Shown here: positions 2,735-51,962 of the stretch, piece after piece
Layout of the letters: the number at the start of each line of letters is the position of its first letter
Position numbering within the stretch: position 1 is the stretch's first letter
NCBI GenBank assembly: GCA_000002445.1
Contig: CP000071.1
Span: forward strand, 256,001-320,000
DNA from: Trypanosoma brucei
Lineage: Eukaryota
Direction of reading: 5' to 3'
Length of the DNA: 64,000 nucleotides
Notes under the pieces: generated by a model
What the model saw: only the letters and a program-made list of their open reading frames with translations
Told to the model about the DNA's origin: nothing
Database searches by the model: none
Position numbers and translations under genes: made by a program

Positions 2735-2768
2735 GACGGTAATTATATCAAACGCGCAGGTATCAAAA

Positions 2769-24031: not shown

Positions 24032-24063
<32 letters not shown>

Positions 24064-30356: not shown

Positions 30357-31094
30357 AACAACAGTTATTAAACTCCTACAAACTCTACACATATCATCAC
30401 AGAGGTTTTTTAAAAAAAAAAATGTAAGAAGCTCAATTACGTACAAACAGGAAGTTAGTTACACAAATTGAAGCTTGTAATAAGAAACACAACAATAGCG
30501 TAAAAGGAATACATGACAGGCAAAAGCCTACAACTCCACAACAAAGGCATAATACAGTTGTATGTATAAACCAATTAGAGAAAGTTGGATTGTTTGTTTT
30601 TTTTTTTTTTAAGGCCAAACAAACACAGTTCCCCACAAAAAAAGTTTCTTCACCCACACAATTAAAAAAAAAGGAACAGCTCCCCCCCCAAAAAAAAAAA
30701 ACTGCTCTCTTTCGCATCAAACCGACAAGGAAAACGCACCGAAATCTACAGGAGTGGAAAAAAAACAATAATATAAAATTTTAAAAAAAGAAAAAAAATA
30801 CAATCCTTTACAACTCTCCAAAAAAAAATTTTAGATGAAGAAAAAAAGTGTATAATACTCTTAAAAACAGGCTTTGCATGGAACTGAAAAAAATATTTAA
30901 AAAAAAAGTTGCAAACACAGAGGTAGTTAAAAAAAAAATACAAAGTATATAACATTACAACTCTAGTTTTTTTTAATTGGCAACGATAAAACCATAACGA
31001 GAAGCCTTAAGTAACACCCAACAATGACACGTTTGCGTGTATGTAATCCCTCACGCTAATCCTTGGCTGCTACACCGAAACGGTACTACTTGGA

Positions 31095-32507
31095 CTACAA
31101 AAGACCAACTAATGTGAAAGTAAGGGAAAATAATAATAAGCGTAAATTGTGGTTCTTATTGCTTGCTGCACTTCCCATTGAAGACAAACGACCTTCACCA
31201 AACTCGATCAGAGAAGCAACTCCAGCCACCTCCATCGTTTTATTCAGTTTGACCTCTTTTCTCCGCACGGCAATGCTGGCAATAGTAATCAGCTGTGTGG
31301 ATGTATTCAGATCTTCAAGCATATGAGAGACCACACGTGTGTCACTCTCCAGTCGCTCCGAGAGATTTGGAAAGTTGTCCATAAGTTTCTTCCTCATATC
31401 ATCCAGAGATTTGGGTGTCACCACCCAAGCTGTTTCCCCGCACACCTCAGCAGCCTTCTTTGCTTTCTCATCTGCAGCATTTCCAGCTATCTTCCTTAGC
31501 GTATTTTCCATGAGTGGTAGGTAATGAGCCCTTATACTTTTGAGATTCCTTGCATACCTGCTTACCTTCTTAAACACATTCTGTGCTTTACTTACTGCTT
31601 TCGCAACCTCAGCAACGGCCCGCTTCACCTGATCCATGTGTCCCCCCGGACGCTTTGCATCCGCTTGGCTCCGTTCCTCCACTTTAGAAACCATTGCAGA
31701 ACGGCTCACAGCTTGCTCCGTGAATGCGTCCACTGCACCTTTTAGGCCTCTGTACTGCTCAACCATCAAACACACTGCTTGTGTCTGATTCAGAGTAAGA
31801 TTGTACTTTCTGGTGATAGAGGCCTTTGTTCCCTCGACCAGTTCCTTCACCGTAGACTCACCTTTGAGCGCCACCGACCTCCAAGTAACGACATTGTAGA
31901 GCACAAACTCCAGCTTCCACAGCTCCCCGGAACTTTCCCGGGTGTCATCCTCCAAACCTTCCGAAGCACCCTCAGGTAACGTACTAAACAACTCCAACAG
32001 CGTACCGTTAAGGGAATCGGAAGACACGCTTTCAGCAGCTCCCTTGCATTTTTCAGCCGCGCTCCTGACTCTCCAATTGGAATTGTGTCCTGCCACCTCC
32101 TTCAACATGCGCTCTAACGCTGCTATACGATTGCTCCTGATCTCTTCAATATTCTCCGCCCTAAACTCAGTCTCAATGGATGCGGTTTCAGCTTTCTTGG
32201 CGGCCTCAGTAACGTTGGAAGCAACACGCTTCGCACGCTCGACGGGATCGGTGGCATTTCTGTTCTCCCACAAGACATCCTCAGCCAAAGTTACATATTC
32301 ATCACTCCGAGTCTTGGCATTCGATATCTTCAATGATTCGGTAGTTATCCAATATTTTAGGTCACGGACGGCATCTTTCAGTCCCCTGAACTGCTTCAGA
32401 GCATTACACAATGTAACAGTTTGCTCAAGTGTAAGATTATTGTTCTTACCAACAGCAAATGGCATGCACAGGAGTACAACTGCTGTGAAACAGGTGAATC
32501 GCGTCAT
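31095..32507 (-). CDS. Ala/Lys-rich predicted alpha-helical secreted protein with signal peptide and C-terminal hydrophobic GPI-anchor-type tail (array copy 1, 470 aa)
   Basis: The track start is a TTG; the first ATG gives MTRFTCFTAVVLLCMPFAVG, a classic signal peptide. The body is helix-favouring (A, K, E, L) with several NxS/T sites. The C-terminus GSAASNKNHNLRLLLFSLTFTLVGLL looks like an omega site plus hydrophobic tail. Confidence 0.8.
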   Translation of the reverse strand: MTRFTCFTAVVLLCMPFAVGKNNNLTLEQTVTLCNALKQFRGLKDAVRDLKYWITTESLKISNAKTRSDEYVTLAEDVLWENRNATDPVERAKRVASNVTEAAKKAETASIETEFRAENIEEIRSNRIAALERMLKEVAGHNSNWRVRSAAEKCKGAAESVSSDSLNGTLLELFSTLPEGASEGLEDDTRESSGELWKLEFVLYNVVTWRSVALKGESTVKELVEGTKASITRKYNLTLNQTQAVCLMVEQYRGLKGAVDAFTEQAVSRSAMVSKVEERSQADAKRPGGHMDQVKRAVAEVAKAVSKAQNVFKKVSRYARNLKSIRAHYLPLMENTLRKIAGNAADEKAKKAAEVCGETAWVVTPKSLDDMRKKLMDNFPNLSERLESDTRVVSHMLEDLNTSTQLITIASIAVRRKEVKLNKTMEVAGVASLIEFGEGRLSSMGSAASNKNHNLRLLLFSLTFTLVGLL

Positions 32508-32900
32508 TTGGCTCAACTCTCTCTTGGATGTGGAAATCTTGGAATGATGTTTCGTCTACAAAATGGTAAGGAAAGATAGCAACAAAAGTTGATACTATGC
32601 ATGAAATGACACGGAGAAAATGAGACCAACTGGAAGCCATAATTAGTCACTTATGCACAAGGCACAACATCTTTACGGAAAACACAACTAAAGTCGTTGA
32701 CATACATGGACTACACAACACAGAAGCAGTGATGTATATGACAGTATGCCTCAGTCACACTTCCATATGTGCATGCACGCTCATAAGCATTGCCAACTTT
32801 CTTGTTGTTCGTATCTTATCCATTCATAAAACATCCCCAACAGAGTGGCATCCATTGACAGCATGCGGTAATAAGTGCCTCCAGCAGCTGTCAGACAAGA

Positions 32901-35900
32901 TTAGTTGTGCGACGAATCACATGAGAGAGAAACATTGCTTTCCTCATCGTGATTGGGATACGCCTGCGCTTCGTCGACGGATGCCGCATGCGGATTATGA
33001 AAAGGTGGTGTGTCGTATACAGGCAGCACAGTGACTCCTTCACCGTCAACATGGGTGTGCCCGCTGTAATTTATAGTGTCTCTGCCACGAGTCGCAGTTG
33101 AGTTGAAGGGAAGCACAACGGCTTGGGGTAGTGGTAGAGGAATCGAGCGCATGGCCTGCTGCAAACGGACATAATCACTAAACTCGGCATCAACTATCGC
33201 CTGCCACTCCTCTTCCTCCCAGTTCACGAGCCGCATACGCCGCCCAGCCTCGCTTTCAAGCATAAACGTCGACTCCTCGTAGAAGTGCTGTGTAGTGGTG
33301 TAACTCATCATGTCATAACTCGTGAGCCGCGACGTATCATGAACGTCCGTCGACATCTCTGACATGGTATCATGAACGGAAACCTCGATTTCCTCACGTG
33401 TTTGCGATTGCAAGCGCCGACGCTGTGAGGCACGCCTCATATAAATGGCATTCAGCAGGTCCGGGTGATCTGCCGGTACAGTCACAGGTATTGGATTGAC
33501 ATTCACACCCCTGCCAGTCGGACCCTCATACATGCTGAATTCTCCACTGTAGTCAAATTGTAGTTCCAGTTCCTTTGCATCCACGCGGATACGCTCAATA
33601 CCGTCTGTAAAGACAAGCGCCATGTTGTAGCGGTCCCTCGCCTCCTGTAATGCGATCTGATCACGATCATCACACTCTTGCTCCTCGACAGAAGTCCAGT
33701 CCGCCCTCCCAGGAAAGTCACCGCCCCACGCAAAGTCGTCAACACCCGATGTCATGCCATCGATCATCGTCCTCGCGGTGGTATTGGTATTGGGGGAACC
33801 ATCACCAGAGTAGAACCCCAGAAGCAGTGGGTTGTTACCGCTTTCCAAATATTCGGGGTCGGGAGATGTTCCACTGATACAAGACATGTCGAGATTGTCC
33901 AGCTGCATCTTATCTGCAACGACAAGTTGTCGCTCCTCCTTCTCCTTAGAGCAGCATCGTCGCAAAAAGCACACGGCAAGCAACAACAGCAGCAGAAACA
34001 GCAACACAGCTGCCACAATAATGGCAATCACCGCCCCCATTCCCAATGGACCCCAAGCAGACCCACCACATATATCCCCACTTGCCTTCACATTACCCAA
34101 AGTAACGCAGTAGGTATTGTCTGTGAGGTCCCATGCGCAAACACTGAACTCCGTGCCCGCGGGGTAGTCTCTAATTTTGTTGTGGTTCATCCTCAACTTA
34201 CACTTGCCATCTGAGCCCTCACTGGCTTCCCCGACGGTGACGCCCTTGTCAGTGGGGTTGCAACAGTCACCCTTGATCACACGCACAACCGTCTGGCGGT
34301 GGGAAGAGTCCGGTGCACGGCACGACTCGAGTGGTGTCACCTTACAAGGTTCCACTATCGAAGGAAATACACTGACGGGTGGAATGAAGCGGAGGCTAGA
34401 GCTCAAAGGGACACTGACGACTGAACGGTTGACAGGAGTGGTAGCGCAGAAATATATCGAGTCCGTACCATTTTGCGCGGTAACAGAAACACGGCGGGCG
34501 CTTGCCGCGTCATCATCACCCACCAGTGCCCAACTTCCATGTGATTCATTTCGACGCAGGCAACTTCTGTCTGTGCTAAAACCGGGAAGCAAGCTCTCAG
34601 CATACAGGTCGTCCATCAAGTACAGAACGCCAGGAACACCAAGAAGGACGTCTCTCCCACGAATATTGTAATACGTAGGGTCAAATGTCTCAATCTGCGC
34701 AATCGGGAGGAGCTGCTTTGCCGAAGCAACACGTGCTGCTATCCCATTAGCGCTTATTTTCACAATTTTGGGACGCGTCGCACTGCCGTCAAAAACCTCC
34801 TGGCAGAGCGTCCACACACCCGCGGATGGTAACCCGGCCGCATTCACGTTCTTGAACGATATATTACCACGCGCCTCCTCGTCAGTCGTAAAGAATGGCA
34901 CCACGTCCTCACCACCACAGGAAGCATCTCGCCGCAGACGAAATGCTGAGTTTGGCGACAGAGGAATGTACACCTCTGCCTCCGTCCCCAGAACAAATGA
35001 CGACGGAAAGATGATATCAGTAGAAACCTCCACTTCCGATACAACACTGAGGTTCCCGGCGGGGGTCCCAACGCACAACGACACGGAAGGCAACCTCCCT
35101 GGAATGAAGGTCGGACCCAGTACAACGCTGCCGCTCGGCCGCACGTAACCCACAGAGTTCCCCGTCAGAGTGGTTGCGCACGCATTTTCGGAGAGATATA
35201 CGCCACGAAAGTCGGAGTTGTGTAGATACGCAAGTGGGTTCTCTGCGTCTTCCCCGGGCACTAACGAGTACAATGGCTTTGCTCCAGAGACCACAGGTGT
35301 CTGCAGTTTTGCGTGAAACCGAGCAGTGGGAACCGCCGCAGGATCGATCTTCTTCACGATGGGCGGAGTTATGATGAGAACCTCCGCTACTGGTATTGGA
35401 GGCGAGGTGGGTTGTTCCCCCAATACACATACACATTTCACGCCTGAGATACCTATTAGCGTAACCGCCTCCTCAACTGGGGTCTCTGCAAGACCGGGGG
35501 CCGCCACAATCTTCTCGCCACACACCGCGCAATCGCTTAGGTACGTGTCCGGTGTTCGGGTAGCGTAGTTCATCACTAAGTTCGCAGGCCCTAGCACCTC
35601 GCTGTCGCTATCCACACGTCCATGAATGCTAGGGTTCACAACACGGAAGTTTTCCACTGAAAGCGTCGGGCCATCTGTTGTGAAGACATACCCAGGATCC
35701 CTTATTGTGTGTGTACACACATAAAACGTAAGATTCCGATTGTACCGTGGCGTCATTGTGGCTCTGCTCTGACTAAGTACTCCATTGCAGTCACTCCTTG
35801 TGGAAAGAAAGGGACTGGTAAGGATCGCCTTGTCAATGCCATAGTCGGTTACTTGTTTCGCTGGAAGCGCCGTCACCGGCCGTACCGCAGGCTGCTTTCC

Positions 35901-38900
35901 ACCGGGGCATTCATCTAAGTGAATCAGTTGCATAGTCCCACGCATAACATACCCACCGCTTTCCCCACGCTCACAATAGTACACATCTGTCAGATCACGG
36001 TTCCGGTATTTGCACTTATCCACATGCAGCGTTGACATAGAGTTGGCTATGACCGTGTCGTACTCACTCAAGATACTGTCAGTACACGCTTCTAAGGTGG
36101 AGATCCTCACCCTCCCACTTTGAATGCCACTGGACTCCACGGTCACACTGCGACCTGCAATAATCGTCGCAGGAGTCATGTAGTGAAAAATATTGAAAGT
36201 AGATGCAGGCAACTTATCATACGCAGAAATACCGACACACACCCTGGCACCCTTCGCCACAGCTGGCGTCTTCACAATGGTAACATCCTTACTGTGTTCG
36301 CCGGAAGCAAAGGGAAAACTGTCATACGAAGCATTCGCCTCTGTGCAGTTAAGCTCTGGGGGGACAATGTAAACGGTGAGATTCGACGCCCCTATATGCA
36401 AGCTACCCCCATCAAGGGTCAAGCGAAGAGGTGTGTGCTTCCGTACGAGTGACACATTAAAGGACGCCGTAAACGGGTTAATCACCTTAAGGGGCTTCTG
36501 ACCAACAGCAACTCCCAAACGCCGCTCATCCTGCTGACACAATGCATATTCGCCTAGTAGAACATCCTCCAAGGGAGTAGTTGGCCCAGTGTAGTAGCGC
36601 TCAGTCGCCTCCTCACAAATCCTTGCATTCAGTGGGACTTTGCAGGAAGCGGCGTTGACACAGCGCACGAGGAACAAAGATGCCTTCTTAAGCAGCGGTC
36701 TTGCCACAAAATTATTCGTTGACCTACGGACAGCGTACAGAGAATCCACAGCAAAATCCTCAGCACTTACCTTCCCTCCGTACAAGTAATACGATTCATT
36801 GGTATCACCCCACCCCACGCAAACATGCAGTTCGCCAGCCTTCTGAACCACAAAAGGTTCTGCACTCCCACTTATGGGGTCAACCCAACCCTCACCGTAC
36901 ACCCTAATGCCACCACCGGGGGCACTTTGGCACGACTCAATGCTCTCGCTCACAAGAAAGCGTGTTGGCTGCAGCGCAGTCAGCGCCTCTCCTCGAAACC
37001 TCATGCTGAGGGGAAGACCAACAACGCCAATAGGTGAATCCGGCACAAGCTCTAGCTGCTGCTGTGACTGAATTAAACCTACATCTTCGTATCCATTCCC
37101 CTTCCACAGGCATACCTTCCATTTCTTCATACCAACAGCTGTGTAGACCACATACGCCGGACCCACTTCAGTAATTCTAATAGCAACGGCAGTACCATCA
37201 TCCACAATTTCGCCACAGTTCACATCACTCGTTTCCTTAAAAAGCACCTTCAGACCTTTGAGGGAGGTCTTATCAGGTACAATAAAATTGACTCGATTGC
37301 TTACGCCAACGAACACGGTCCTGGGGAATACCTCCACATCGGAAACAGCTAACATACCCGATACCCTCACTTTCCAGGCACCCCCATCACTGTCATGGTA
37401 ACCAACACATACGTACACCTTGCCAACTGTGTTGCGCATCACCGTCACGGACGCCTCCCCTTCAGCCGTTGCATTTACCTCAGAAATGGATGGTGTGCAG
37501 CTCTCACTTTCACTGAACACTATGGGCGCCTCAGGCGGTACGGCGGACACCTTGACGGGTGTACTGACACCTTTTACAATGGAAGCCGGCGACAACTCCG
37601 CAGGACCGTATACCATGACATTCCCAACGTTCGAATAGGGGCGATTCACAGGATGTTCCGTGCCCGGTGTCTTCACACACAGCACATGTCTACCCGCAGT
37701 AGAAAACGCAACGCCGTACAGGGCAGTTGCATTCATGGAGTATGTCTCCCCGACTGGTGTAAGGCAATTATCCAGGGAGAAATACCCGGTTGTTCCTGCC
37801 TTGAGAGTCACGTTGGCATCAAGATGAATCGTCTCAGCCACACCCACGAAAAGGGTCCGGTGTTTCAGTTTGTATCGCCGCGTCGCAATATTCTTCACAG
37901 GGTAGGTATATCCCTCGTCAGGTTCCTCGTCCGCTTGTAGGTCGACAGATGAGGGAGTCGCGACACACAAAGTCATGTTCGGGAGTGCGTCCTCAGGAAC
38001 TCGAAACGTGACAGAACTTGCGCCAACTCTCACATCACCTTTTGAGTTGAGTTCCTCACACTCCGGGGTTACCGATAAACCAACCGTTATCACACCACTC
38101 CGCCCCGCATTGTGGCCGCTCAACAAAACCGTCAAATCAAGTCCACTGATCACGTTGGCTTCATCAAATGATACCGTCGGTGGCGGCAGAACTGTCACAA
38201 CAGCCGCACGCGCCTTGGGGTATGCAGTCGTGCTCCCCTCAAGACACGCGTAGTACGTACCTGAAACAGGTAAGGCAACTGCACCCCCATCCGAACGCGA
38301 GCGACGCTTCTTTACTGGGGGGCCCCGATATTGGATTCCTGATGGACCATCCACACGCACAGCCCCTGTACAGTTGGAATACATGTAGAAATCAAGCACC
38401 AACTTCACATCGTTAGCAGCTGCAGTCGCTGCATCCATTGTATACTTAATGCGAGTCCCGTACCCACTGTATAGGGTCCGTGGCTGAACGCCGTACTCCC
38501 GAACAGTTACCTTGTTCTCAGATGGTGAATATAACCTGCCACCCTTGTGGTAGGGCCAACCATTACACAGAAAATAGTCACCTTTAGGCACAGAAACCTC
38601 CATATTAACAACCTGCAACGTTTCCCCACCCACGGGGTCCTGAAGGATCGGATCACATAGGGGTGACTGAGAAAAAGTTGCCCACACGAGGTTGCCTACA
38701 GCCTCCAAGCGAAATGTTTCGTTCGTGTGCCGAAGTGCATCAGTGTTGTTCGTGTCATAACGTGGCACAGCAAGTAACACAGAGGCAGGAACGACGAAAG
38801 TTTTGCCATCACTCGTGGGTACCTTAGCACAAAGATAAATTACGCTTTGGACACTCCGTGTCACTCTCACCTCCCGGTTAGAACCCAGTTCGGCAGGTGG

Positions 38901-39485
38901 CAGACCTTGAATCATGCTCACGTCGTCACAGTTTTCATTGCGGTGAAATGTAATGAAGGTTCCAACAGGCACTGCGTCGCCGAATCGAATAGTGTTGTCA
39001 ACATCACGTTTCAAATAGCGTGGTATGGCTTCAACAAGGCTCAGCTGCACAGACAAAGAAAGGGAGGGAAACGCATCACCAGCACATATATACACTTCAC
39101 GTACTTTCGTATCGTACCACGGGTCAATGCCCACATCATTGCTCGTAACCGTGAAATTACATGGCGCATTCTTGGATATTTTGCACTTGGAGCCAATGAT
39201 CTGTGTATTGTCACATGTACTCATACGCGAAACGAAAATATCTGCTTTGATACTCTGGTCCGTCGTTTCCACACTGAACGGTACGTTCACCAGCGGTTTG
39301 TTAGGTCGTAACACAAGTGATGCAGCTCCACTGCTGCATAAAAACGTTGACGACACGATGCACAGAACTGAAGCCCAAAAAGTAAAGGGCACCTTACAGC
39401 AATGTCGGTAACGTGGAGATAGAGAGGAAGCATGGCTGGTACCTGTGCCACAGTGGGTTGAGTCCCTTCTTAGAAACATTTGCAT
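32901..39485 (-). CDS. Giant type I membrane glycoprotein with a modular cysteine-rich ectodomain, one TM helix and a ~340-aa cytoplasmic tail (array copy 1, ~2194 aa)
   Basis: An uninterrupted 6.6-kb ORF. The first ATG is at 39485 (the track TTG start is at 39494). A hydrophobic signal segment (FTFWASVLCIVSSTFLCSSGAAS) follows a ~30-aa N-region. The ectodomain has more than 40 Cys and many NxS/T sites. The TM segment GAVIAIIVAAVLLFLLLLLLAVCFL is encoded at about 33940..34030, followed by a basic stop-transfer (RRCCSKEKEE). Confidence 0.8.
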   Translation of the reverse strand: MQMFLRRDSTHCGTGTSHASSLSPRYRHCCKVPFTFWASVLCIVSSTFLCSSGAASLVLRPNKPLVNVPFSVETTDQSIKADIFVSRMSTCDNTQIIGSKCKISKNAPCNFTVTSNDVGIDPWYDTKVREVYICAGDAFPSLSLSVQLSLVEAIPRYLKRDVDNTIRFGDAVPVGTFITFHRNENCDDVSMIQGLPPAELGSNREVRVTRSVQSVIYLCAKVPTSDGKTFVVPASVLLAVPRYDTNNTDALRHTNETFRLEAVGNLVWATFSQSPLCDPILQDPVGGETLQVVNMEVSVPKGDYFLCNGWPYHKGGRLYSPSENKVTVREYGVQPRTLYSGYGTRIKYTMDAATAAANDVKLVLDFYMYSNCTGAVRVDGPSGIQYRGPPVKKRRSRSDGGAVALPVSGTYYACLEGSTTAYPKARAAVVTVLPPPTVSFDEANVISGLDLTVLLSGHNAGRSGVITVGLSVTPECEELNSKGDVRVGASSVTFRVPEDALPNMTLCVATPSSVDLQADEEPDEGYTYPVKNIATRRYKLKHRTLFVGVAETIHLDANVTLKAGTTGYFSLDNCLTPVGETYSMNATALYGVAFSTAGRHVLCVKTPGTEHPVNRPYSNVGNVMVYGPAELSPASIVKGVSTPVKVSAVPPEAPIVFSESESCTPSISEVNATAEGEASVTVMRNTVGKVYVCVGYHDSDGGAWKVRVSGMLAVSDVEVFPRTVFVGVSNRVNFIVPDKTSLKGLKVLFKETSDVNCGEIVDDGTAVAIRITEVGPAYVVYTAVGMKKWKVCLWKGNGYEDVGLIQSQQQLELVPDSPIGVVGLPLSMRFRGEALTALQPTRFLVSESIESCQSAPGGGIRVYGEGWVDPISGSAEPFVVQKAGELHVCVGWGDTNESYYLYGGKVSAEDFAVDSLYAVRRSTNNFVARPLLKKASLFLVRCVNAASCKVPLNARICEEATERYYTGPTTPLEDVLLGEYALCQQDERRLGVAVGQKPLKVINPFTASFNVSLVRKHTPLRLTLDGGSLHIGASNLTVYIVPPELNCTEANASYDSFPFASGEHSKDVTIVKTPAVAKGARVCVGISAYDKLPASTFNIFHYMTPATIIAGRSVTVESSGIQSGRVRISTLEACTDSILSEYDTVIANSMSTLHVDKCKYRNRDLTDVYYCERGESGGYVMRGTMQLIHLDECPGGKQPAVRPVTALPAKQVTDYGIDKAILTSPFLSTRSDCNGVLSQSRATMTPRYNRNLTFYVCTHTIRDPGYVFTTDGPTLSVENFRVVNPSIHGRVDSDSEVLGPANLVMNYATRTPDTYLSDCAVCGEKIVAAPGLAETPVEEAVTLIGISGVKCVCVLGEQPTSPPIPVAEVLIITPPIVKKIDPAAVPTARFHAKLQTPVVSGAKPLYSLVPGEDAENPLAYLHNSDFRGVYLSENACATTLTGNSVGYVRPSGSVVLGPTFIPGRLPSVSLCVGTPAGNLSVVSEVEVSTDIIFPSSFVLGTEAEVYIPLSPNSAFRLRRDASCGGEDVVPFFTTDEEARGNISFKNVNAAGLPSAGVWTLCQEVFDGSATRPKIVKISANGIAARVASAKQLLPIAQIETFDPTYYNIRGRDVLLGVPGVLYLMDDLYAESLLPGFSTDRSCLRRNESHGSWALVGDDDAASARRVSVTAQNGTDSIYFCATTPVNRSVVSVPLSSSLRFIPPVSVFPSIVEPCKVTPLESCRAPDSSHRQTVVRVIKGDCCNPTDKGVTVGEASEGSDGKCKLRMNHNKIRDYPAGTEFSVCAWDLTDNTYCVTLGNVKASGDICGGSAWGPLGMGAVIAIIVAAVLLFLLLLLLAVCFLRRCCSKEKEERQLVVADKMQLDNLDMSCISGTSPDPEYLESGNNPLLLGFYSGDGSPNTNTTARTMIDGMTSGVDDFAWGGDFPGRADWTSVEEQECDDRDQIALQEARDRYNMALVFTDGIERIRVDAKELELQFDYSGEFSMYEGPTGRGVNVNPIPVTVPADHPDLLNAIYMRRASQRRRLQSQTREEIEVSVHDTMSEMSTDVHDTSRLTSYDMMSYTTTQHFYEESTFMLESEAGRRMRLVNWEEEEWQAIVDAEFSDYVRLQQAMRSIPLPLPQAVVLPFNSTATRGRDTINYSGHTHVDGEGVTVLPVYDTPPFHNPHAASVDEAQAYPNHDEESNVSLSCDSSHN

Positions 39486-41521
39486 AAATACCAAACGCTA
39501 CAACAACCTTCTCAGTACTCGCTTATTCCCTTTCTCTCAACGTGTATGCCTTTATGCTCTTGCAGAAAACTATTTACGGTGTGCGTATTCGCCAACCCGC
39601 GTAAACCTAAGACGATTGTGCACAGACTCCTCTGTCTCTGTCTCTCACACTAGTTCCTTACCACGCGACCCGTTTAAGAGGGAAGTGGCTAAACTATGTA
39701 AGGTGCTTATGGAATTACTACGGTACTGACCTTCACTTATCTTCGTGTACTCCGTTTAACTTTCAATTGCCCCTCCGCAGTGATGAACTCTTTTGTTTGA
39801 TTTCTTCTATGGTTGCTTCTATCCTCAGTTACTATGAAGATACAGCTGTATCTATTACCTCCGTTACTCGACAAAAATGTTTCCCCGGTGAAAAAGGGAT
39901 GTGCCTCTATGGATATACAAATGTATGAGTCCACAAATGTATGGATATGCAGGTGTAGAAAATATGCGACCCTACACGTACAGCTTTTCTATGTAACGTC
40001 CTGTTGAAATGGTCCTCGTTTACTCTTATTTGTGCTTTCTCGTATCGTTGTCGATCTCCTTCCCGTTCCACAACAGACTTTTCTCGCAATATCGCTCGCC
40101 TGTGTATCGGTAAATCAATTCACAAAACACCTTTATGGTAGGAACGGTATATCAAACTGATGAATATTTAGTGTGCGAAGCTTGAGGCTACGCTACTGAT
40201 CAATGCGGACAACACGTCGGGCAGAAAACTACAGAAACTAAAACAAAAGGGCTAAAAATGCGGTAAAAAAATCTATAAACCTATGTAAATGATGGTAGCG
40301 ATATATTGTCAGAGCTGCTTCGCGAAACAGAAATGGCAACTGAATGGCTAACTAAAAAAAACAAAAAAGATCTAGCAGTAATATCGCGCTGCTTCTGCAC
40401 AACGTCTAAAGTGTGATGCACGGAAAGGAAGTAGTTTTTCAAGAGAAGTGCACACAAAATGGTAAGCACATGGGTGAGGAATGCGCTCCATAGACATCAA
40501 TGAATAAACCCCGCGCACACAAGCAAGTGAAACGACATATCAAAAGAAGTTACAATGCAACACTTAAAGAGTACAACATGTGCTGGTGAAGTAACAAAAC
40601 CCACACATTCACTTTTTAAAAATGGTCAAAAGATATAATGCCCCTGAATTTATTAAGAAGAGGTGGGCATCAGGGTAGCACAGGCGGATACAACTCCAGG
40701 CCAAGAGGGCAACAAAGACATATGAACTGCAAGTGCAAACAATTACTATAATGTTTTACATTTAGCAACCGACACACTATAAATGACCACAAGGGACTTT
40801 AACATGTCCCCGATAGATCCACCCACAATCGCTAAACGAAGTAATTCAAGCGAGCACATAAACTCACGGCAACATTCCAAGCGTAGCAAACACAATGTAG
40901 TGGAGAGCAGACGTACAGCACCTGGAAGGCGCCATCTCAAACTCGGTACTCACTAATACATACCACACAGCTGCACAGTTCAGTCATATAATGAACATTA
41001 AACGGTTATATATATAATAACTGCTACAATAAGGAAAAAAAGGGAGGGGGGAAAGGGAAGCAATTATGAAGTCAAGACTAAATTAATACTTTACATACAC
41101 AGCAGAGAATTGCACAATCTGTAAAGCGCTCACACATGTAAGTATACACAAGAAGGAGTAAACACTAAAATGAAAACACGGATGAAAATAATGAAGAAAC
41201 GCTAACGCACCTGCTCACCAACACAACATAGCAGTCTACATTGCTGTATATGTGATGTGCATAAAATGTCGAGAAACTAGGAACAAACACTAAATAAAGG
41301 TACCAGAATAGCCATGCCGATACTTTAAAAGAAAAAAAGAATTTATAAAAAAATATATTAGGATCATGATTAGCATATAAAAGTGAAAACGCTATTGAAA
41401 ACAATGGCAACGATAAAACCATAACGAGAAGCCTTAAGTAACACCCAACAATGACACGTTTGCGTGTATGTAATCCCTCACGCTAATCCTTGGCTGCTAC
41501 ACCGAAACGGTACTACTTGGA

Positions 41522-42934
41522 CTACAAAAGACCAACTAATGTGAAAGTAAGGGAAAATAATAATAAGCGTAAATTGTGGTTCTTATTGCTTGCTGCACTT
41601 CCCATTGAAGACAAACGACCTTCACCAAACTCGATCAGAGAAGCAACTCCAGCCACCTCCATCGTTTTATTCAGTTTGACCTCTTTTCTCCGCACGGCAA
41701 TGCTGGCAATAGTAATCAGCTGTGTGGATGTATTCAGATCTTCAAGCATATGAGAGACCACACGTGTGTCACTCTCCAGTCGCTCCGAGAGATTTGGAAA
41801 GTTGTCCATAAGTTTCTTCCTCATATCATCCAGAGATTTGGGTGTCACCACCCAAGCTGTTCCCCCGCACACCTCAGCAGCCTTCTTTGCTTTCTCATCT
41901 GCAGCATTTCCAGCTATCTTCCTTAGCGTATTTTCCATGAGTGGTAGGTAATGAGCCCTTATACTTTTGAGATTCCTTGCATACCTGCTTACCTTCTTAA
42001 ACACATTCTGTGCTTTACTTACTGCTTTCGCAACCTCAGCAACGGCCCGCTTCACCTGATCCATGTGTCCCCCCGGACGCTTTGCATCCGCTTGGCTCCG
42101 TTCCTCCACTTTAGAAACCATTGCAGAACGGCTCACAGCTTGCTCCGTGAATGCGTCCACTGCACCTTTTAGGCCTCTGTACTGCTCAACCATCAAACAC
42201 ACTGCTTGTGTCTGATTCAGAGTAAGATTGTACTTTCTGGTGATAGAGGCCTTTGTTCCCTCGACCAGTTCCTTCACCGTAGACTCACCTTTGAGCGCCA
42301 CCGACCTCCAAGTAACGACATTGTAGAGCACAAACTCCAGCTTCCACAGCTCCCCGGAACTTTCCCGGGTGTCATCCTCCAAACCTTCCGAAGCACCCTC
42401 AGGTAACGTACTAAACAACTCCAACAGCGTACCGTTAAGGGAATCGGAAGACACGCTTTCAGCAGCTCCCTTGCATTTTTCAGCCGCGCTCCTGACTCTC
42501 CAATTGGAATTGTGTCCTGCCACCTCCTTCAACATGCGCTCTAACGCTGCTACACGATTGCTCCTGATCTCTTCAATATTCTCCGCCCTAAACTCAGTCT
42601 CAATGGATGCGGTTTCAGCTTTCTTGGCGGCCTCAGTAACGTTGGAAGCAACACGCTTCGCACGCTCGACGGGATCGGTGGCATTTCTGTTCTCCCACAA
42701 GACATCCTCAGCCAAAGTTACATATTCATCACTCCGAGTCTTGGCATTCGATATCTTCAATGATTCGGTAGTTATCCAATATTTTAGGTCACGGACGGCA
42801 TCTTTCAGTCCCCTGAACTGCTTCAGAGCATTACACAATGTAACAGTTTGCTCAAGTGTAAGATTATTGTTCTTACCAACAGCAAATGGCATGCACAGGA
42901 GTACAACTGCTGTGAAACAGGTGAATCGTGTCAT
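41522..42934 (-). CDS. Ala/Lys-rich GPI-anchor-type surface protein, array copy 2 (2 aa differences from copy 1: I->V, E->G)
   Basis: Identical to copy 1 except for two substitutions, at a 10,427-bp offset. Confidence 0.8.
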   Translation of the reverse strand: MTRFTCFTAVVLLCMPFAVGKNNNLTLEQTVTLCNALKQFRGLKDAVRDLKYWITTESLKISNAKTRSDEYVTLAEDVLWENRNATDPVERAKRVASNVTEAAKKAETASIETEFRAENIEEIRSNRVAALERMLKEVAGHNSNWRVRSAAEKCKGAAESVSSDSLNGTLLELFSTLPEGASEGLEDDTRESSGELWKLEFVLYNVVTWRSVALKGESTVKELVEGTKASITRKYNLTLNQTQAVCLMVEQYRGLKGAVDAFTEQAVSRSAMVSKVEERSQADAKRPGGHMDQVKRAVAEVAKAVSKAQNVFKKVSRYARNLKSIRAHYLPLMENTLRKIAGNAADEKAKKAAEVCGGTAWVVTPKSLDDMRKKLMDNFPNLSERLESDTRVVSHMLEDLNTSTQLITIASIAVRRKEVKLNKTMEVAGVASLIEFGEGRLSSMGSAASNKNHNLRLLLFSLTFTLVGLL

Positions 42935-43327
42935 TTGGCTCAACTCTCTCTTGGATGTGGAAATCTTGGAATGATGTTTCGTCTACAAAATGGTAAGGAA
43001 AGATAGCAACAAAAGTTGATACTATGCATGAAATGACACGGAGAAAAGGAGACCAACTGGAAGCCATAATTAGTCACTTATGCACAAGGCACAACATCTT
43101 TACGGAAAACACAACTAAAGTCGTTGACATACATGGACTACACAACACAGAAGCAGTGATGTATATGACAGTATGCCTCAGTCACACTTCCATATGTGCA
43201 TGCACGCTCATAAGCATTGCCAACTTTCTTGTTGTTCGTATCTTATCCATTCATAAAACATCCCCAACAGAGTGGCATCCATTGACAGCATGCGGTAATA
43301 AGTGCCTCCAGCAGCTGTCAGACAAGA

Positions 43328-46300
43328 TTAGTTGTGCGACGAATCACATGAGAGAGAAACATTGCTTTCCTCATCGTGATTGGGATACGCCTGCGCTTCG
43401 TCGACGGATGCCGCATGCGGATTATGAAAAGGTGGTGTGTCGTATACAGGCAGCACAGTGACTCCTTCACCGTCAACATGGGTGTGCCCGCTGTAATTTA
43501 TAGTGTCTCTGCCACGAGTCGCAGTTGAGTTGAAGGGAAGCACAACGGCTTGGGGTAGTGGTAGAGGAATCGAGCGCATGGCCTGCTGCAAACGGACATA
43601 ATCACTAAACTCGGCATCAACTATCGCCTGCCACTCCTCTTCCTCCCAGTTCACGAGCCGCATACGCCGCCCAGCCTCGCTTTCAAGCATAAACGTCGAC
43701 TCCTCGTAGAAGTGCTGTGTAGTGGTGTAACTCATCATGTCATAACTCGTGAGCCGCGACGTATCATGAACGTCCGTCGACATCTCTGACATGGTATCAT
43801 GAACGGAAACCTCGATTTCCTCACGTGTTTGCGATTGCAAGCGCCGACGCTGTGAGGCACGCCTCATATAAATGGCATTCAGCAGGTCCGGGTGATCTGC
43901 CGGTACAGTCACAGGTATTGGATTGACATTCACACCCCTGCCAGTCGGACCCTCATACATGCTGAATTCTCCACTGTAGTCAAATTGTAGTTCCAGTTCC
44001 TTTGCATCCACGCGGATACGCTCAATACCGTCTGTAAAGACAAGCGCCATGTTGTAGCGGTCCCTCGCCTCCTGTAATGCGATCTGATCACGATCATCAC
44101 ACTCTTGCTCCTCGACAGAAGTCCAGTCCGCCCTCCCAGGAAAGTCACCGCCCCACGCAAAGTCGTCAACACCCGATGTCATGCCATCGATCATCGTCCT
44201 CGCGGTGGTATTGGTATTGGGGGAACCATCACCAGAGTAGAACCCCAGAAGCAGTGGGTTGTTACCGCTTTCCAAATATTCGGGGTCGGGAGATGTTCCA
44301 CTGATACAAGACATGTCGAGATTGTCCAGCTGCATCTTATCTGCAACGACAAGTTGTCGCTCCTCCTTCTCCTTAGAGCAGCATCGTCGCAAAAAGCACA
44401 CGGCAAGCAACAACAGCAGCAGAAACAGCAACACAGCTGCCACAATAATGGCAATCACCGCCCCCATTCCCAATGGACCCCAAGCAGACCCACCACATAT
44501 ATCCCCACTTGCCTTCACATTACCCAAAGTAACGCAGTAGGTATTGTCTGTGAGGTCCCATGCGCAAACACTGAACTCCGTGCCCGCGGGGTAGTCTCTA
44601 ATTTTGTTGTGGTTCATCCTCAACTTACACTTGCCATCTGAGCCCTCACTGGCTTCCCCGACGGTGACGCCCTTGTCAGTGGGGTTGCAGCAGTCACCCT
44701 TGATCACACGCACAACCGTCTGGCGGTGGGAAGAGTCCGGTGCACGGCACGACTCGAGTGGTGTCACCTTACAAGGTTCCACTATCGAAGGAAATACACT
44801 GACGGGTGGAATGAAGCGGAGGCTAGAGCTCAAAGGGACACTGACGACTGAACGGTTGACAGGAGTGGTAGCGCAGAAATATATCGAGTCCGTACCATTT
44901 TGCGCGGTAACAGAAACACGGCGGGCGCTTGCCGCGTCATCATCACCCACCAGTGCCCAACTTCCATGTGATTCATTTCGACGCAGGCAACTTCTGTCTG
45001 TGCTAAAACCGGGAAGCAAGCTCTCAGCATACAGGTCGTCCATCAAGTACAGAACGCCAGGAACACCAAGAAGGACGTCTCTCCCACGAATATTGTAATA
45101 CGTAGGGTCAAATGTCTCAATCTGCGCAATCGGGAGGAGCTGCTTTGCCGAAGCAACACGTGCTGCTATCCCATTAGCGCTTATTTTCACAATTTTGGGA
45201 CGCGTCGCACTGCCGTCAAAAACCTCCTGGCAGAGCGTCCACACACCCGCGGATGGTAACCCGGCCGCATTCACGTTCTTGAACGATATATTACCACGCG
45301 CCTCCTCGTCAGTCGTAAAGAATGGCACCACGTCCTCACCACCACAGGAAGCATCTCGCCGCAGACGAAATGCTGAGTTTGGCGACAGAGGAATGTACAC
45401 CTCTGCCTCCGTCCCCAGAACAAATGACGACGGAAAGATGATATCAGTAGAAACCTCCACTTCCGATACAACACTGAGGTTCCCGGCGGGGGTCCCAACG
45501 CACAACGACACGGAAGGCAACCTCCCTGGAATGAAGGTCGGACCCAGTACAACGCTGCCGCTCGGCCGCACGTAACCCACAGAGTTCCCCGTCAGAGTGG
45601 TTGCGCACGCATTTTCGGAGAGATATACGCCACGAAAGTCGGAGTTGTGTAGATACGCAAGTGGGTTCTCTGCGTCTTCCCCGGGCACTAACGAGTACAA
45701 TGGCTTTGCTCCAGAGACCACAGGTGTCTGCAGTTTTGCGTGAAACCGAGCAGTGGGAACCGCCGCAGGATCGATCTTCTTCACGATGGGCGGAGTTATG
45801 ATGAGAACCTCCGCTACTGGTATTGGAGGCGAGGTGGGTTGTTCCCCCAATACACATACACATTTCACGCCTGAGATACCTATTAGCGTAACCGCCTCCT
45901 CAACTGGGGTCTCTGCAAGACCGGGGGCCGCCACAATCTTCTCGCCACACACCGCGCAATCGCTTAGGTACGTGTCCGGTGTTCGGGTAGCGTAGTTCAT
46001 CACTAAGTTCGCAGGCCCTAGCACCTCGCTGTCGCTATCCACACGTCCATGAATGCTAGGGTTCACAACACGGAAGTTTTCCACTGAAAGCGTCGGGCCA
46101 TCTGTTGTGAAGACATACCCAGGATCCCTTATTGTGTGTGTACACACATAAAACGTAAGATTCCGATTGTACCGTGGCGTCATTGTGGCTCTGCTCTGAC
46201 TAAGTACTCCATTGCAGTCACTCCTTGTGGAAAGAAAGGGACTGGTAAGGATCGCCTTGTCAATGCCATAGTCGGTTACTTGTTTCGCTGGAAGCGCCGT

Positions 46301-49912: not shown

Positions 49913-51832
49913 AAATACCAAACGCTACAACAACCTTCTCAGTACTCGCTTATTCCCTTTCTCTCAACGTGTATGCCTTTATGCTCTTGCAGAAAACTAT
50001 TTACGGTGTGCGTATTCGCCAACCCGCGTAAACCTAAGACGATTGTGCACAGACTCCTCTGTCTCTGTCTCTCACACTAGTTCCTTACCACGCGACCCGT
50101 TTAAGAGGGAAGTGGCTAAACTATGTAAGGTGCTTATGGAATTACTACGGTACTGACCTTCACTTATCTTCGTGTACTCCGTTTAACTTTCAATTGCCCC
50201 TCCGCAGTGATGAACTCTTTTGTTTGATTTCTTCTATGGTTGCTTCTATCCTCAGTTACTATGAAGATACAGCTGTATCTATTACCTCCGTTACTCGACA
50301 AAAATGTTTCCCCGGTGAAAAAGGGATGTGCCTCTATGGATATACAAATGTATGAGTCCACAAATGTATGGATATGCAGGTGTAGAAAATATGCGACCCT
50401 ACACGTACAGCTTTTCTATGTAACGTCCTGTTGAAATGGTCCTCGTTTACTCTTATTTGTGCTTTCTCGTATCGTTGTCGATCTCCTTCCCGTTCCACAA
50501 CAGACTTTTCTCGCAATATCGCTCGCCTGTGTATCGGTAAATCAATTCACAAAACACCTTTATGGTAGGAACGGTATATCAAACTGATGAATATTTAGTG
50601 TGCGAAGCTTGAGGCTACGCTACTGATCAATGCGGACAACACGTCGGGCAGAAAACTACAGAAACTAAAACAAAAGGGCTAAAAATGCGGTAAAAAAATC
50701 TATAAACCTATGTAAATGATGGTAGCGATATATTGTCAGAGCTGCTTCGCGAAACAGAAATGGCAACTGAATGGCTAACTAAAAAAAACAAAAAAGATCT
50801 AGCAGTAATATCGCGCTGCTTCTGCACAACGTCTAAAGTGTGATGCACGGAAAGGAAGTAGTTTTTCAAGAGAAGTGCACACAAAATGGTAAGCACATGG
50901 GTGAGGAATGCGCTCCATAGACATCAATGAATAAACCCCGCGCACACAAGCAAGTGAAACGACATATCAAAAGAAGTTACAATGCAACACTTAAAGAGTA
51001 CAACATGTGCTGGTGAAGTAAAAAAAACCCACACATTCACTTTTTAAAAATGGTCAAAAGATATAATGCCCCTGAATTTATTAAGAAGAGGTGGGCATCA
51101 GGGTAGCACAGGCGGATACAACTCCAGGCCAAGAGGGCAACAAAGACATATGAACTGCAAGTGCAAACAATTACTATAATGTTTTACATTTAGCAACCGA
51201 CACACTATAAATGACCACAAGGGACTTTAACATGTCCCCGATAGATCCACCCACAATCGCTAAACGAAGTAATTCAAGCGAGCACATAAACTCACGGCAA
51301 CATTCCAAGCGTAGCAAACACAATGTAGTGGAGAGCAGACGTACAGCACCTGGAAGGCGCCATCTCAAACTCGGTACTCACTAATACATACCACACAGCT
51401 GCACAGTTCAGTCATATAATGAACATTAAACGGTTATATATATAATAACTGCTACAATAAGGAAAAAAAGGGAGGGGGGAAAGGGAAGCAATTATGAAGT
51501 CAAGACTAAATTAATACTTTACATACACAGCGGAGAATTGCACAATCTGTAAAGCGCTCACACATGTAAGTATACACAAGAAGGAGTAAACACTAAAATG
51601 AAAACACGGATGAAAATAATGAAGAAACGCTAACGCACCTGCTCACCAACACAACATAGCAGTCTACATTGCTGTATATGTGATGTGCATAAAATGTCGA
51701 GAAACTAGGAACAAACACTAAATAAAGGTACCAGAATAGCCATGCCGATACTTTAAAAGAAAAAAAGAATTTATAAAAAAATATATTAGGATCATGATTA
51801 GCATATAAAAGTGAAAACGCTATTGAAAACAA

Positions 51833-51962
51833 TGGCAACGATAAAACCATAACGAGAAGCCTTAAGTAACACCCAACAATGACACGTTTGCGTGTATGTA
51901 ATCCCTCACGCTAATCCTTGGCTGCTACACCGAAACGGTACTACTTGGACTACAAAAGACCA
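51833..51962. repeat. Partial third repeat unit (3' flank of the surface gene, ~130 bp) preceding the mosaic paralog
   Basis: Identical to 30978..31107 and 41405..41534, then diverges abruptly 3 codons before the stop of the paralog. Confidence 0.9.

What the first reader, a model, noticed from the sequence alone, without database searches (positions are those of the whole stretch)
31095..32507. Ala/Lys-rich helical GPI-anchor-type protein family of three genes, possibly a helical-bundle surface receptor
The protein has a cleavable signal peptide and about 430 residues of strongly helix-favouring sequence that is mainly A, K, E, L, V, T and S, with about 5% Asn giving several N-glycosylation sites (NLT, NAT, NVT, NGT). 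It ends in Ser/Ala small residues followed by a hydrophobic tail. This is the general architecture of trypanosome GPI-anchored helical-bundle surface proteins, the class that includes the haptoglobin-haemoglobin receptor and the GARP/BARP families. I cannot confirm homology to any of those without a search. There are three family members in the window, one of them diverged.
Basis: inference. Interest (0 to 1): 0.55.

Follow-up and report, generated by a model that had tools for sequence, protein, structure and literature searches.

The report
Known trypanosome CESP-like GARP-domain surface proteins

Summary
The ORF at 31095-32507 (- strand) is real. It is residue-for-residue Tb927.8.930 of T. 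brucei brucei TREU927 chromosome 8. Its two relatives in the window are Tb927.8.950 (2 residues different) and Tb927.8.970 (43% identical). All three match Pfam GARP (PF16731) far above threshold. An AlphaFold2 model (pLDDT 84) has two three-helix bundles whose closest solved structures are the T. brucei factor H receptor, MISP360 and T. congolense GARP, followed at lower scores by the haptoglobin-haemoglobin receptors. A signal peptide (cleavage after AVG20) and a GPI-type C-terminus fit simple rules, and Savage et al. 2012 predicted both for 930 and 950 with dedicated programs.

The family is published as Fam50 clade 'ii', placed as sister to T. congolense CESP, with transcripts that peak in tsetse salivary glands.

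Each protein is an internal duplication of two GARP domains 212 residues apart, and a T. congolense relative has three at the same spacing. The genes sit in a 10.4-kb tandem duplication (99.9% identical) that also carries the flagella-connector gene FCP1. Tb927.8.970 is a mosaic with a 506-nt stretch identical to 930. No function has been tested; I think adhesion or ligand capture in the salivary gland is most likely.

The parts
31095..32507 (-). Tb927.8.930 coding sequence (470 aa plus stop): signal peptide, two GARP domains, GPI-type tail
   Evidence: ORF. Identical to AAZ12864.1 / Tb927.8.930. Pfam GARP E = 6e-69, two stretches.
32448..32507 (-). Signal peptide, residues 1-20 (MTRFTCFTAVVLLCMPFAVG, predicted cleavage before K21)
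   Evidence: Rule-based check: 17-residue uncharged core, A at -3 and G at -1. pLDDT below 50 for residues 1-22. SignalP-positive in PMC3378594.
31812..32447 (-). GARP domain 1, residues 21-232 (C34...C154, motif CKGAAESVSSDSL)
   Evidence: Scanned alone: Pfam GARP 156.5 bits, E = 7.6e-46. AF2 helices 27-81, 83-140, 145-153, 163-176 and 183-234. Motifs.
31173..31811 (-). GARP domain 2, residues 233-445 (C246...C356, motif CGETAWVVTPKSL)
   Evidence: Scanned alone: Pfam GARP 88.3 bits, E = 6.1e-25. PDB sequence hit to GARP 2Y44, 5e-7. 30-31% identical to domain 1, z = 30 against shuffles. AF2 helices 239-284, 291-343, 347-355, 365-378 and 384-447.
31098..31172 (-). GPI-attachment-type C-terminal signal, residues 446-470 (omega candidates G445/S446/A447, spacer NKNHN, tail LRLLLFSLTFTLVGLL)
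   Evidence: Rule-based check. pLDDT dips below 50 at residues 445-451. BigPI and FragAnchor positive in PMC3378594.
41522..42934 (-). Tb927.8.950 coding sequence, 470 aa, 2 residues different from 930 (I128V, E358G)
   Evidence: Identical to AAZ12866.1.
51950..53329 (-). Tb927.8.970 coding sequence, 459 aa, the diverged paralogue (43% identical overall; first 70 residues identical), also two GARP domains
   Evidence: Identical to AAZ12868.1. Pfam GARP E = 1e-117 with two stretches. Domain 2 alone scores 195.5 bits.
30978..51962 (.). Two tandem copies of a 10.4-kb unit (30978-41534 and 41405-51962, overlapping by 130 nt), 99.9% identical with 9 differences. Each unit carries one CESP-like gene and one FCP1 gene.
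   Evidence: Self-BLAST, difference list, repeats.
32901..39485 (-). Tb927.8.940 (2194 aa, single-pass membrane protein, published as flagella connector protein FCP1). The second copy, Tb927.8.960, is at 43328-49912. It is a neighbour within the duplicated unit and not shown to be functionally linked.
   Evidence: Exact match to AAZ12865.1 / AAZ12867.1. FCP1 = Tb927.8.940 in PMC6529878. No Pfam hit.
53120..53625 (-). 506-nt tract of the 970 locus (first 210 nt of the coding sequence plus 296 nt upstream) that is 100% identical to 32298-32803 of the 930 locus. Past this tract, inside the gene, BLASTN detects no similarity. Probable gene-conversion or recombination boundary.
   Evidence: Protein alignment.

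Best explanation
The three genes are Tb927.8.930, 950 and 970 of T. brucei chromosome 8. They belong to surface-protein family Fam50 (Pfam GARP domain), on the branch published as sister to T. congolense CESP.

Shown here:
- Each protein has a cleavable-type signal peptide, two tandem GARP domains 212 residues apart, and a GPI-type C-terminal signal.
- Each domain is modelled as an elongated three-helix bundle.
- Each domain keeps the two family-conserved cysteines, the first near the start of helix 1 and the second in the short-helix region between helices 2 and 3.

Inferred:
- The two conserved cysteines probably form a disulfide at the end of the bundle far from the membrane.
- The protein enters the ER, is N-glycosylated (9 sequons in 930/950, 5 in 970), and its hydrophobic tail is exchanged for a GPI anchor.
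- Only four residues link the last helix of domain 1 to the first helix of domain 2. The C-terminus of each bundle lies at the opposite end from its N-terminus and Cys-bearing head. The two bundles are therefore joined end to end. If extended, they would form a rod about twice the ~83 A height reported for a BARP model, placing domain 1 above a single-bundle BARP/MISP coat.

From the literature: transcripts peak in tsetse salivary-gland parasites.

Most likely role (inferred, untested): an exposed adhesin or ligand-binding molecule of salivary-gland epimastigote and pre-metacyclic forms. This is by analogy with the proposed attachment role of CESP and with the ligand-binding relatives FHR and HpHbR.
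For: - Identity: exact matches to AAZ12864/12866/12868; neighbouring genes match in accession order.
- Family: Pfam GARP E = 6e-69 and 1e-117, and each half alone passes the cut-off. PDB sequence hits are 2Y44, 6XZ6 and 5VTL. An exhaustive HMMER scan returns only African-trypanosome Fam50 proteins. The conserved C...Q(L/F/Y)R.L and C...V(T/S)xxSL motifs are present in both domains.
- Fold: AF2 mean pLDDT 84.4, two sets of three long helices. Foldseek gives 6XZ6, 5VTL and 2Y44 at target TM 0.86-0.93, then HpHbR, ISG75 and ISG65.
- Signals: plus SignalP, BigPI and FragAnchor in PMC3378594.
- Expression: Tb927.8.950 classed as salivary-gland specific and detected in metacyclics (PMC3378594). Tb927.8.950 and 970 are up in salivary glands, log2FC 1.5 and 2.7 (PMC8483307).
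- CESP relationship: PMC2739429 and PMC3605285. A T. congolense 689-aa relative has three GARP domains at the same 212-residue spacing.
- BARP model height of 82.7 A: PMC10089363.
Against: - No protein-level data for these three genes were found in the searchable literature: no localisation, no GPI biochemistry, no knock-out.
- The relative orientation of the two bundles is not established. pTM is only 0.51 and I had no coordinates or PAE, so a folded-back arrangement is possible.
- My domain-level NJ tree does not recover a CESP-plus-chromosome-8 clade (0% bootstrap). Domain 1 is most similar to subfamily 'i' (Tb11.02.2370) by HMMER. The 'sister of CESP' statement therefore rests on the published tree and the shared multi-domain architecture.
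- The related MISP family is dispensable for development in tsetse (PMC10089363), so an essential adhesion role should not be assumed.
- Tb927.8.970 was not in the published 'highly probable GPI' list and has only one rule-based omega candidate, D436.
Confidence: 0.8

Rival explanations
1. Same protein family, different job: a receptor for a soluble host or vector macromolecule taken up or held at the surface, as the factor H receptor (Tb927.5.4020) binds factor H and HpHbR binds haptoglobin-haemoglobin. Under this reading it is not an adhesin.
For: The closest solved structure by Foldseek is the factor H receptor 6XZ6 (E = 3.8e-7, target TM 0.86). HpHbR also matches at fold level. Tb927.8.970 has a PDB sequence hit to 6XZ6 at 2.3e-9.
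Against: No ligand is known. Sequence identity to FHR is only about 21-25%. A long double-bundle rod is not the geometry of the known receptors, which are single bundles. CESP, which Jackson et al. 2013 place as sister to these genes, is linked to attachment.
Confidence: 0.2
2. A passive coat component: a protective, space-filling glycoprotein of insect stages, as often proposed for GARP/BARP, with no specific binding partner.
For: It belongs to the same family as the coat proteins GARP and BARP. It is heavily sequon-decorated and encoded by a multi-copy array.
Against: The reported salivary-gland fold changes are smaller than for BARP or MISP (log2FC 1.5-2.7 against 2.6-5.3 and 3.6-4.7). That suits a minor component better than a bulk coat. 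The two-domain architecture differs from the coat proteins.
Confidence: 0.15
3. An intracellular coiled-coil protein, or a non-expressed duplicate, whose resemblance to surface proteins is only compositional.
For: Weak, non-significant hits to SMC coiled coil (E = 0.09) and to designed helical bundles.
Against: Pfam GARP at E = 6e-69. Family-specific conserved Cys motifs. Signal peptide and GPI-type tail. Transcripts detected and stage-regulated. ORFs are intact in two subspecies.
Confidence: 0.02

Closest known systems
T. congolense CESP (congolense epimastigote-specific protein; Fam50 CESP clade)
   Same: GARP-domain family with a signal peptide and GPI-type tail, expressed in the insect attachment stage. 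The literature places the T. brucei chromosome 8 array as its sister clade. The T. congolense IL3000 689-aa relative I recovered is also multi-domain, with the same 212-residue spacing.
   Different: There are two GARP domains here against three in the T. congolense protein. Cross-species domain identity is only 23-30%. My domain tree does not resolve orthology. I could not verify that the 689-aa protein is the published CESP (BAF91109.1). An adhesion role has been reported only for CESP.
T. congolense GARP (PDB 2Y44) and T. brucei BARP
   Same: Same Pfam family and same three-helix-bundle fold (target TM 0.93, rmsd 1.8 A to 2Y44). GPI-anchored insect-stage surface proteins.
   Different: GARP and BARP have a single domain (255-326 aa). 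Identity is 22-35%. Their composition is richer in Glu/Ala.
T. brucei factor H receptor, Tb927.5.4020 (PDB 6XZ6; Fam50 subfamily iii)
   Same: Best structural match (E = 3.8e-7, target TM 0.86) and a significant sequence hit for 970 (2.3e-9).
   Different: Single domain, 272 aa. 6XZ6 shows it bound to factor H domain 5, and binding was not tested here.
T. brucei MISP/SGE1 (Tb927.7.360-440; PDB 5VTL; Fam50 subfamily iv)
   Same: Same fold (target TM 0.86) and salivary-gland-stage expression. Its tandem gene array also alternates with unrelated genes, as the chromosome 8 array alternates with FCP1.
   Different: Sequence similarity is marginal (E = 0.12 and 0.003). MISP has one bundle plus a C-terminal extension with 26-residue repeats. 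These proteins instead have a second bundle.
Haptoglobin-haemoglobin receptor (T. brucei Tb927.6.440; T. congolense 4E40)
   Same: Elongated three-helix-bundle GPI-anchored surface protein; fold-level match.
   Different: No sequence-level match in the PDB searches. Target TM is only 0.47-0.55 with rmsd 6-11 A. Not a Pfam GARP member by my tests.

Membership tests
Pfam GARP (PF16731) / surface-phylome family Fam50 | Significant match to the PF16731 profile above the gathering score (27.4 bits) | tested here: met
   Whole proteins score 231.9 and 391 bits. Halves scanned alone: 930 D1 156.5 bits, 930 D2 88.3 bits, 970 D2 195.5 bits.
Pfam GARP (PF16731) / surface-phylome family Fam50 | Ubiquitous cysteine followed a few residues later by a VTxxSL-type motif (Jackson et al. 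2013), plus the N-terminal conserved Cys and Q-L-R-x-L motif | tested here: met
   C34 and Q39 are invariant, and R41, L43, C154, V161 and L166 nearly invariant, across 15 family members. Both motifs are present in both domains of 930 and 970; 930 D1 has the variant VSSDSL. Motif definition from PMC3605285.
Pfam GARP (PF16731) / surface-phylome family Fam50 | Elongated three-helix-bundle fold like GARP 2Y44 | tested here: met
   The test uses a predicted structure. AF2 pLDDT 84.4. Foldseek to 2Y44 gives target TM 0.93 and rmsd 1.8 A; 6XZ6 and 5VTL give TM 0.86.
Pfam GARP (PF16731) / surface-phylome family Fam50 | N-terminal signal peptide | tested here: met
   Rule-based only: uncharged core at residues 4-20, AVG|K. 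SignalP-positive in PMC3378594.
Pfam GARP (PF16731) / surface-phylome family Fam50 | C-terminal GPI-attachment signal, and actual GPI anchoring | tested here: inconclusive
   The sequence rules are met: omega candidates G445/S446/A447 with a 23-25-residue cleaved peptide in 930/950, and a single candidate D436 in 970. BigPI and FragAnchor are positive for 930/950. Actual anchoring cannot be tested with these tools.
Pfam GARP (PF16731) / surface-phylome family Fam50 | Insect-stage-specific expression | not testable with these tools
   Literature only: enriched in salivary glands. The RT-PCR primers published for 930 and 950 match both copies, so they do not tell the two genes apart.
CESP clade of Fam50 | Phylogenetic sister relationship to T. 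congolense CESP | tested here: inconclusive
   Published Bayesian tree says yes. My domain-level NJ bootstrap gives 0% for a joint clade, and deep nodes are unresolved. The best HMMER relatives of domain 1 are subfamily 'i' proteins.
CESP clade of Fam50 | Multi-GARP-domain architecture | tested here: met
   Two domains here and three in the T. congolense 689-aa protein P0048, all 212 residues apart. All other Fam50 hits are single-domain, 255-328 aa. That this feature defines the clade is my proposal and is not a published criterion.
CESP clade of Fam50 | Mediates epimastigote attachment | not testable with these tools
   Reported or proposed for CESP only.
Haptoglobin-haemoglobin receptor family | Detectable sequence homology to HpHbR | tested here: not met
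   No HpHbR chain appears among PDB sequence hits at E up to 1. There is only a fold-level match, TM 0.47-0.55.
MISP/SGE1 (Fam50 subfamily iv) | Close sequence similarity to Tb927.7.360-440 and a C-terminal extension with 26-residue repeats | tested here: not met
   E = 0.12 and 0.003 to 5VTL. No tandem repeats were found in the window. The C-terminal half is a second GARP domain.

The most novel reading that the evidence does not exclude
Tandem GARP bundles define a distinct 'tall' subclass of Fam50, with two in T. brucei Tb927.8.930/950/970 and three in the T. congolense CESP-type protein, all 212 residues apart. Joined end to end, they would project the distal bundle well above the single-bundle BARP/GARP/MISP coat. 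They would then act as the molecules that contact tsetse epithelium during epimastigote attachment. Domain number and the two divergent T. brucei isoforms (930/950 against 970) would be tuned to the tissue colonised, salivary gland or proboscis. The searchable literature does not discuss the multi-domain architecture, and what determines trypanosome tissue tropism and attachment is still open (PMC2739429, PMC10734937).
Probability: 0.2. Interest if true: 0.5.

Novelty: already known. Interest (0 to 1): 0.15.

Why it matters
How T. brucei epimastigotes attach in the tsetse salivary gland, and what sets the different tissue tropism of T. brucei and T. congolense, is unresolved. CESP is the only Fam50 protein with a reported attachment role, and these three genes are its T. 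brucei relatives. They are reasonable candidates for attachment or transmission-blocking studies.

As a scan result, though, this is a correct re-identification of an annotated and published gene family. The additions are modest:
- the explicit two-domain (T. brucei) and three-domain (T. congolense) architecture;
- the mosaic origin of Tb927.8.970;
- the observation that the published primers for 930 and 950 cannot tell the two genes apart.

Tried and rejected
1. Word-indexed homologue searches with 930, with the three-protein alignment and with the T. congolense ORF each returned only the near-identical cluster. The helix-rich composition swamps the 8000-candidate limit, so these searches say nothing about family breadth. 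The exhaustive HMMER scan was used for that.
2. I tried to resolve domain orthology (which T. brucei domain matches which T. congolense domain, and whether the duplication is ancestral) with pairwise scores and an NJ bootstrap. Only the D1-D1 pair (100%) and D2-D2 pair (82%) are supported, and deeper nodes are unresolved. The support values printed after re-rooting were unreliable and were recomputed as bipartition frequencies.
I therefore could not check the inter-domain arrangement against an independent model or look for other multi-domain relatives by structure.
4. I could not obtain the original CESP paper or the BAF91109.1 sequence. Whether the 689-aa T. congolense protein is the published CESP remains unverified.
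5. An intracellular coiled-coil reading was considered and rejected.
6. The antisense ORF at 31942-32547 (+, 201 aa) and its copy at 42369-42974 were considered and dismissed as by-products of the coding strand. They lie wholly inside the GARP-domain genes, and nothing supports them.
7. The Rfam and tRNA scans of the window found nothing.
Full report
**Observation.** The finding's coordinates are exact. On the minus strand an ORF runs from the ATG at 32507 to the stop at 31095-31097 and encodes 470 residues. The composition is A 10.9, L 10.6, E 9.1, V 8.7, S 8.1, K 7.9, T 7.2, R 6.8 and N 5.7%. Two further copies lie at 41522-42934 (two residue differences) and at 51950-53329 (459 aa, 43% identical). 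'Ala/Lys-rich' is a mild overstatement for the first two copies and fits the third better.

**Identity.** The three proteins are residue-for-residue Tb927.8.930, Tb927.8.950 and Tb927.8.970 of T. brucei brucei TREU927 chromosome 8 (accessions AAZ12864, 12866 and 12868). Exact look-ups of the neighbours gave consecutive accessions:
- AAZ12862: a conserved hypothetical protein.
- AAZ12863: a ubiquitin-conjugating E2 enzyme.
- AAZ12865 and AAZ12867: a duplicated 2194-aa protein.
- AAZ12869: phosphoacetylglucosamine mutase.
- AAZ12870: an RNA-binding protein.

**Family.** Pfam GARP (PF16731) matches 930 at E = 6e-69 and 970 at E = 1e-117, with two stretches in each. Scanned separately, each half passes the 27.4-bit cut-off on its own: 930 D1 scores 156.5 bits, 930 D2 scores 88.3 and 970 D2 scores 195.5. 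Sequence searches of the PDB hit only three relatives significantly: T. congolense GARP (2Y44), the 'GARP domain-containing protein' 6XZ6, which is Tb927.5.4020, the factor H receptor, and MISP360 (5VTL). An exhaustive HMMER scan of 1.84 billion representative proteins found nine proteins, all from African trypanosomes:
- the query cluster itself;
- Tb11.02.2370 and a similar T. congolense protein (CCC95080.1);
- a T. congolense fragment;
- a T. vivax GARP-like protein;
- GARP;
- Tb927.5.4020;
- a T. congolense 'cell surface-expressed gene family' protein;
- BARP.

Across these, C34 and Q39 are invariant, and R41, L43, C154, V161 and L166 are nearly invariant. This matches the cysteine plus VTxxSL motif that Jackson et al. 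2013 use to unite Fam50.

The protein is an internal duplication. The motifs C....Q(F/Y)R.L and C...V(T/S)xxSL occur at residues 34 and 154, and again at 246 and 356 (365 in 970), so the first motif recurs exactly 212 residues later. Domains 1 and 2 are 30-32% identical, with z = 27-30 against shuffles. D1 pairs with D1 (100% bootstrap) and D2 with D2 (82%) between 930 and 970, so the duplication predates the paralogue split.

All other Fam50 hits are single-domain proteins of 255-328 aa, with one exception. The T. congolense fragment led to contig CAEQ01000427.1. Its long ORF and the full-length 689-aa protein P0048 carry three GARP domains, again 212 residues apart, between a signal peptide and a GPI-type tail. 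I could not verify that P0048 is the published CESP (BAF91109.1).

**Structure.** AlphaFold2 on a 15-sequence family alignment gave mean pLDDT 84.4 and pTM 0.51. Each half has two long helices joined by a tight turn, then two short helices, then a third long helix:
- Domain 1: long helices 27-81 and 83-140, short helices 145-153 and 163-176, long helix 183-234.
- Domain 2: long helices 239-284 and 291-343, short helices 347-355 and 365-378, long helix 384-447.

Foldseek against the PDB ranks the factor H receptor 6XZ6 first (E = 3.8e-7, target TM 0.86, rmsd 2.0 A). MISP360 5VTL (TM 0.86) and GARP 2Y44 (TM 0.93, rmsd 1.8 A) follow, then the T. congolense and T. brucei haptoglobin-haemoglobin receptors (TM 0.47-0.55), ISG75 and ISG65.

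The following is my inference from the helix order. The N-terminus and the Cys-bearing short-helix 'head' lie at one end of each bundle, and the C-terminus lies at the other. Only four residues (235-238) separate helix 3 of domain 1 from helix 1 of domain 2, so the bundles are joined end to end. The low pTM, and the absence of coordinates or PAE, leave open whether they form a straight rod or fold back on each other. A straight rod would be about twice the 82.7 A reported for a BARP model (PMC10089363).

**Targeting signals.** No dedicated predictor was available, so I applied simple rules.
- N-terminus: MTR, a 17-residue uncharged core, then A-V-G|K.
- C-terminus of 930/950: omega candidates G445, S446 and A447, the spacer NKNHN, and a 16-residue hydrophobic tail, giving a 23-25-residue cleaved peptide.
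- C-terminus of 970: a single candidate D436 with a 23-residue peptide.

The AF2 confidence dips below 50 at residues 445-451, as expected for a flexible linker. Savage et al. 2012 list Tb927.8.930 and 950 as positive by BigPI, FragAnchor and SignalP (PMC3378594). Tb927.8.970 is not in their tables. Naguleswaran et al. 2021 group it with the GPI-anchored proteins.

**What is already published.**
- Fragoso et al. 2009 state that proteins related to CESP are encoded by Tb927.8.930, 950 and 970.
- Jackson et al. [quoted passage not shown]
- Savage et al. 2012 class Tb927.8.950 as salivary-gland specific and detect it in metacyclics.
- Naguleswaran et al. 2021 find 950 and 970 up-regulated in salivary glands, at log2FC 1.5 and 2.7.
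- CESP is strongly epimastigote-specific and is proposed to mediate attachment.

I found no functional, localisation or structural study of the three T. brucei genes. I also found no discussion of their tandem-domain architecture in the searchable library.

**Genomic setting.** Positions 30978-41534 and 41405-51962 are 99.9% identical, with 9 differences in 10.5 kb. The repeated unit holds one CESP-like gene and one 2194-aa membrane-protein gene (Tb927.8.940/960), which Halliday et al. 2019 list as the flagella-connector marker FCP1.

The third gene is a mosaic. A tract of 506 nt (53120-53625: the first 210 nt of coding sequence plus 296 nt upstream) is 100% identical to the 930 locus. The repeat unit also ends 13 nt inside the 3' end of the 970 coding sequence. 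The roughly 1.16 kb in between shows no BLASTN similarity to the other copies. This points to gene conversion or recombination at the edges of an older, divergent paralogue.

**Mechanism and rivals.** Identity, family, fold class and signal architecture are shown. ER entry, glycosylation, GPI anchoring and surface display are inferred. I rank the possible roles as follows:
1. An exposed adhesin or ligand-binding rod on salivary-gland epimastigote and pre-metacyclic forms. This follows from the CESP relationship and the extra bundle.
2. A receptor for a soluble ligand, like FHR or HpHbR.
3. A passive coat component, like GARP or BARP.

The related MISP family is dispensable in tsetse (PMC10089363), which warns against assuming an essential role. 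My domain-level tree did not reproduce the CESP sister relationship, and domain 1 is most similar to subfamily 'i'. Subfamily placement therefore rests on the published phylogeny and on the shared multi-domain architecture.

**Verdict.** The family is annotated and published, so the novelty class is 'already known' and interest is low. The most novel reading still open is that tandem GARP bundles form a tall, attachment-specialised subclass of Fam50.

Noticed in passing
window 30978-51962: A 10.4-kb unit is present in two tandem copies that are 99.9% identical (9 differences). Each copy carries a CESP-like gene plus the 2194-aa gene Tb927.8.940/960, published as flagella connector protein FCP1. 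A surface-protein gene alternating with an unrelated gene also occurs in the MISP array on chromosome 7.
   Followed up: partly
window 53120-53625 versus 32298-32803; repeat edge at 51962: Tb927.8.970 is a mosaic. Its first 210 coding nucleotides plus 296 nt upstream are 100% identical to the 930 locus, and its last 13 coding nucleotides and downstream region belong to the 10.4-kb repeat. The ~1.16 kb between has no BLASTN similarity to the other copies. This suggests gene conversion at the flanks of an older paralogue.
   Followed up: partly
window 31148-31752 and 41575-42179: The RT-PCR and qRT-PCR primers published for Tb927.8.930 and Tb927.8.950 (PMC3378594 supplements) each match both copies exactly and do not match 970. 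The reported expression difference between 930 and 950 therefore cannot be gene-specific.
   Followed up: yes
L001 (T. congolense IL3000 contig CAEQ01000427.1) 452-2443; protein P0048: A T. congolense Fam50 protein of 689 aa has three GARP domains 212 residues apart, plus a signal peptide and GPI-type tail. The contig also holds a truncated second copy of the gene's 5' end (3036-3482) annotated as 'hypothetical protein, unlikely'. This is probably a tandem array broken by assembly. Identity with the published CESP was not verified.
   Followed up: partly
window 51950-53329 compared with T. b. gambiense accessions CBH13100-13104: In the T. b. gambiense DAL972 annotation, the accession order is E2 enzyme, CESP-like, 2194-aa protein, CESP-like, phosphoacetylglucosamine mutase. 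That is two 930-type copies, one FCP1 and no 970-type gene. The 90%-identity cluster of Tb927.8.970 holds only the TREU927 protein and a 56-aa fragment. This is either real copy-number variation or a collapsed repeat in the assembly.
   Followed up: no
window about 15300-27700: A 12-kb stretch of 27-37% GC has no ORF of 200 aa or more and no Rfam or tRNA hit. It lies between the RS-rich RRM protein gene (14276-15262) and Tb927.8.910 (27746-29140), downstream of the latter on the coding strand. This is unusually long for a T. brucei intergenic region or 3' UTR.
   Followed up: partly
window 31942-32547 (+) and 42369-42974 (+): 201-aa ORFs lie antisense to the GARP-domain genes. They sit wholly inside the coding regions and are probably spurious.
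   Followed up: no
window 1844-2896, 10112-10738, 14276-15262, 27746-29140, 29877-30392, 55464-57272, 60912-61868 (all - strand): The rest of the window is one minus-strand gene run. It holds a protein-kinase-like ORF, a Rab-type GTPase-like ORF, an RS-rich RNA-binding-like protein, a Q-rich conserved hypothetical, a ubiquitin-conjugating E2, phosphoacetylglucosamine mutase and an RNA-binding protein. The first three labels are my reading of the translations only; the others come from exact database matches.
   Followed up: partly
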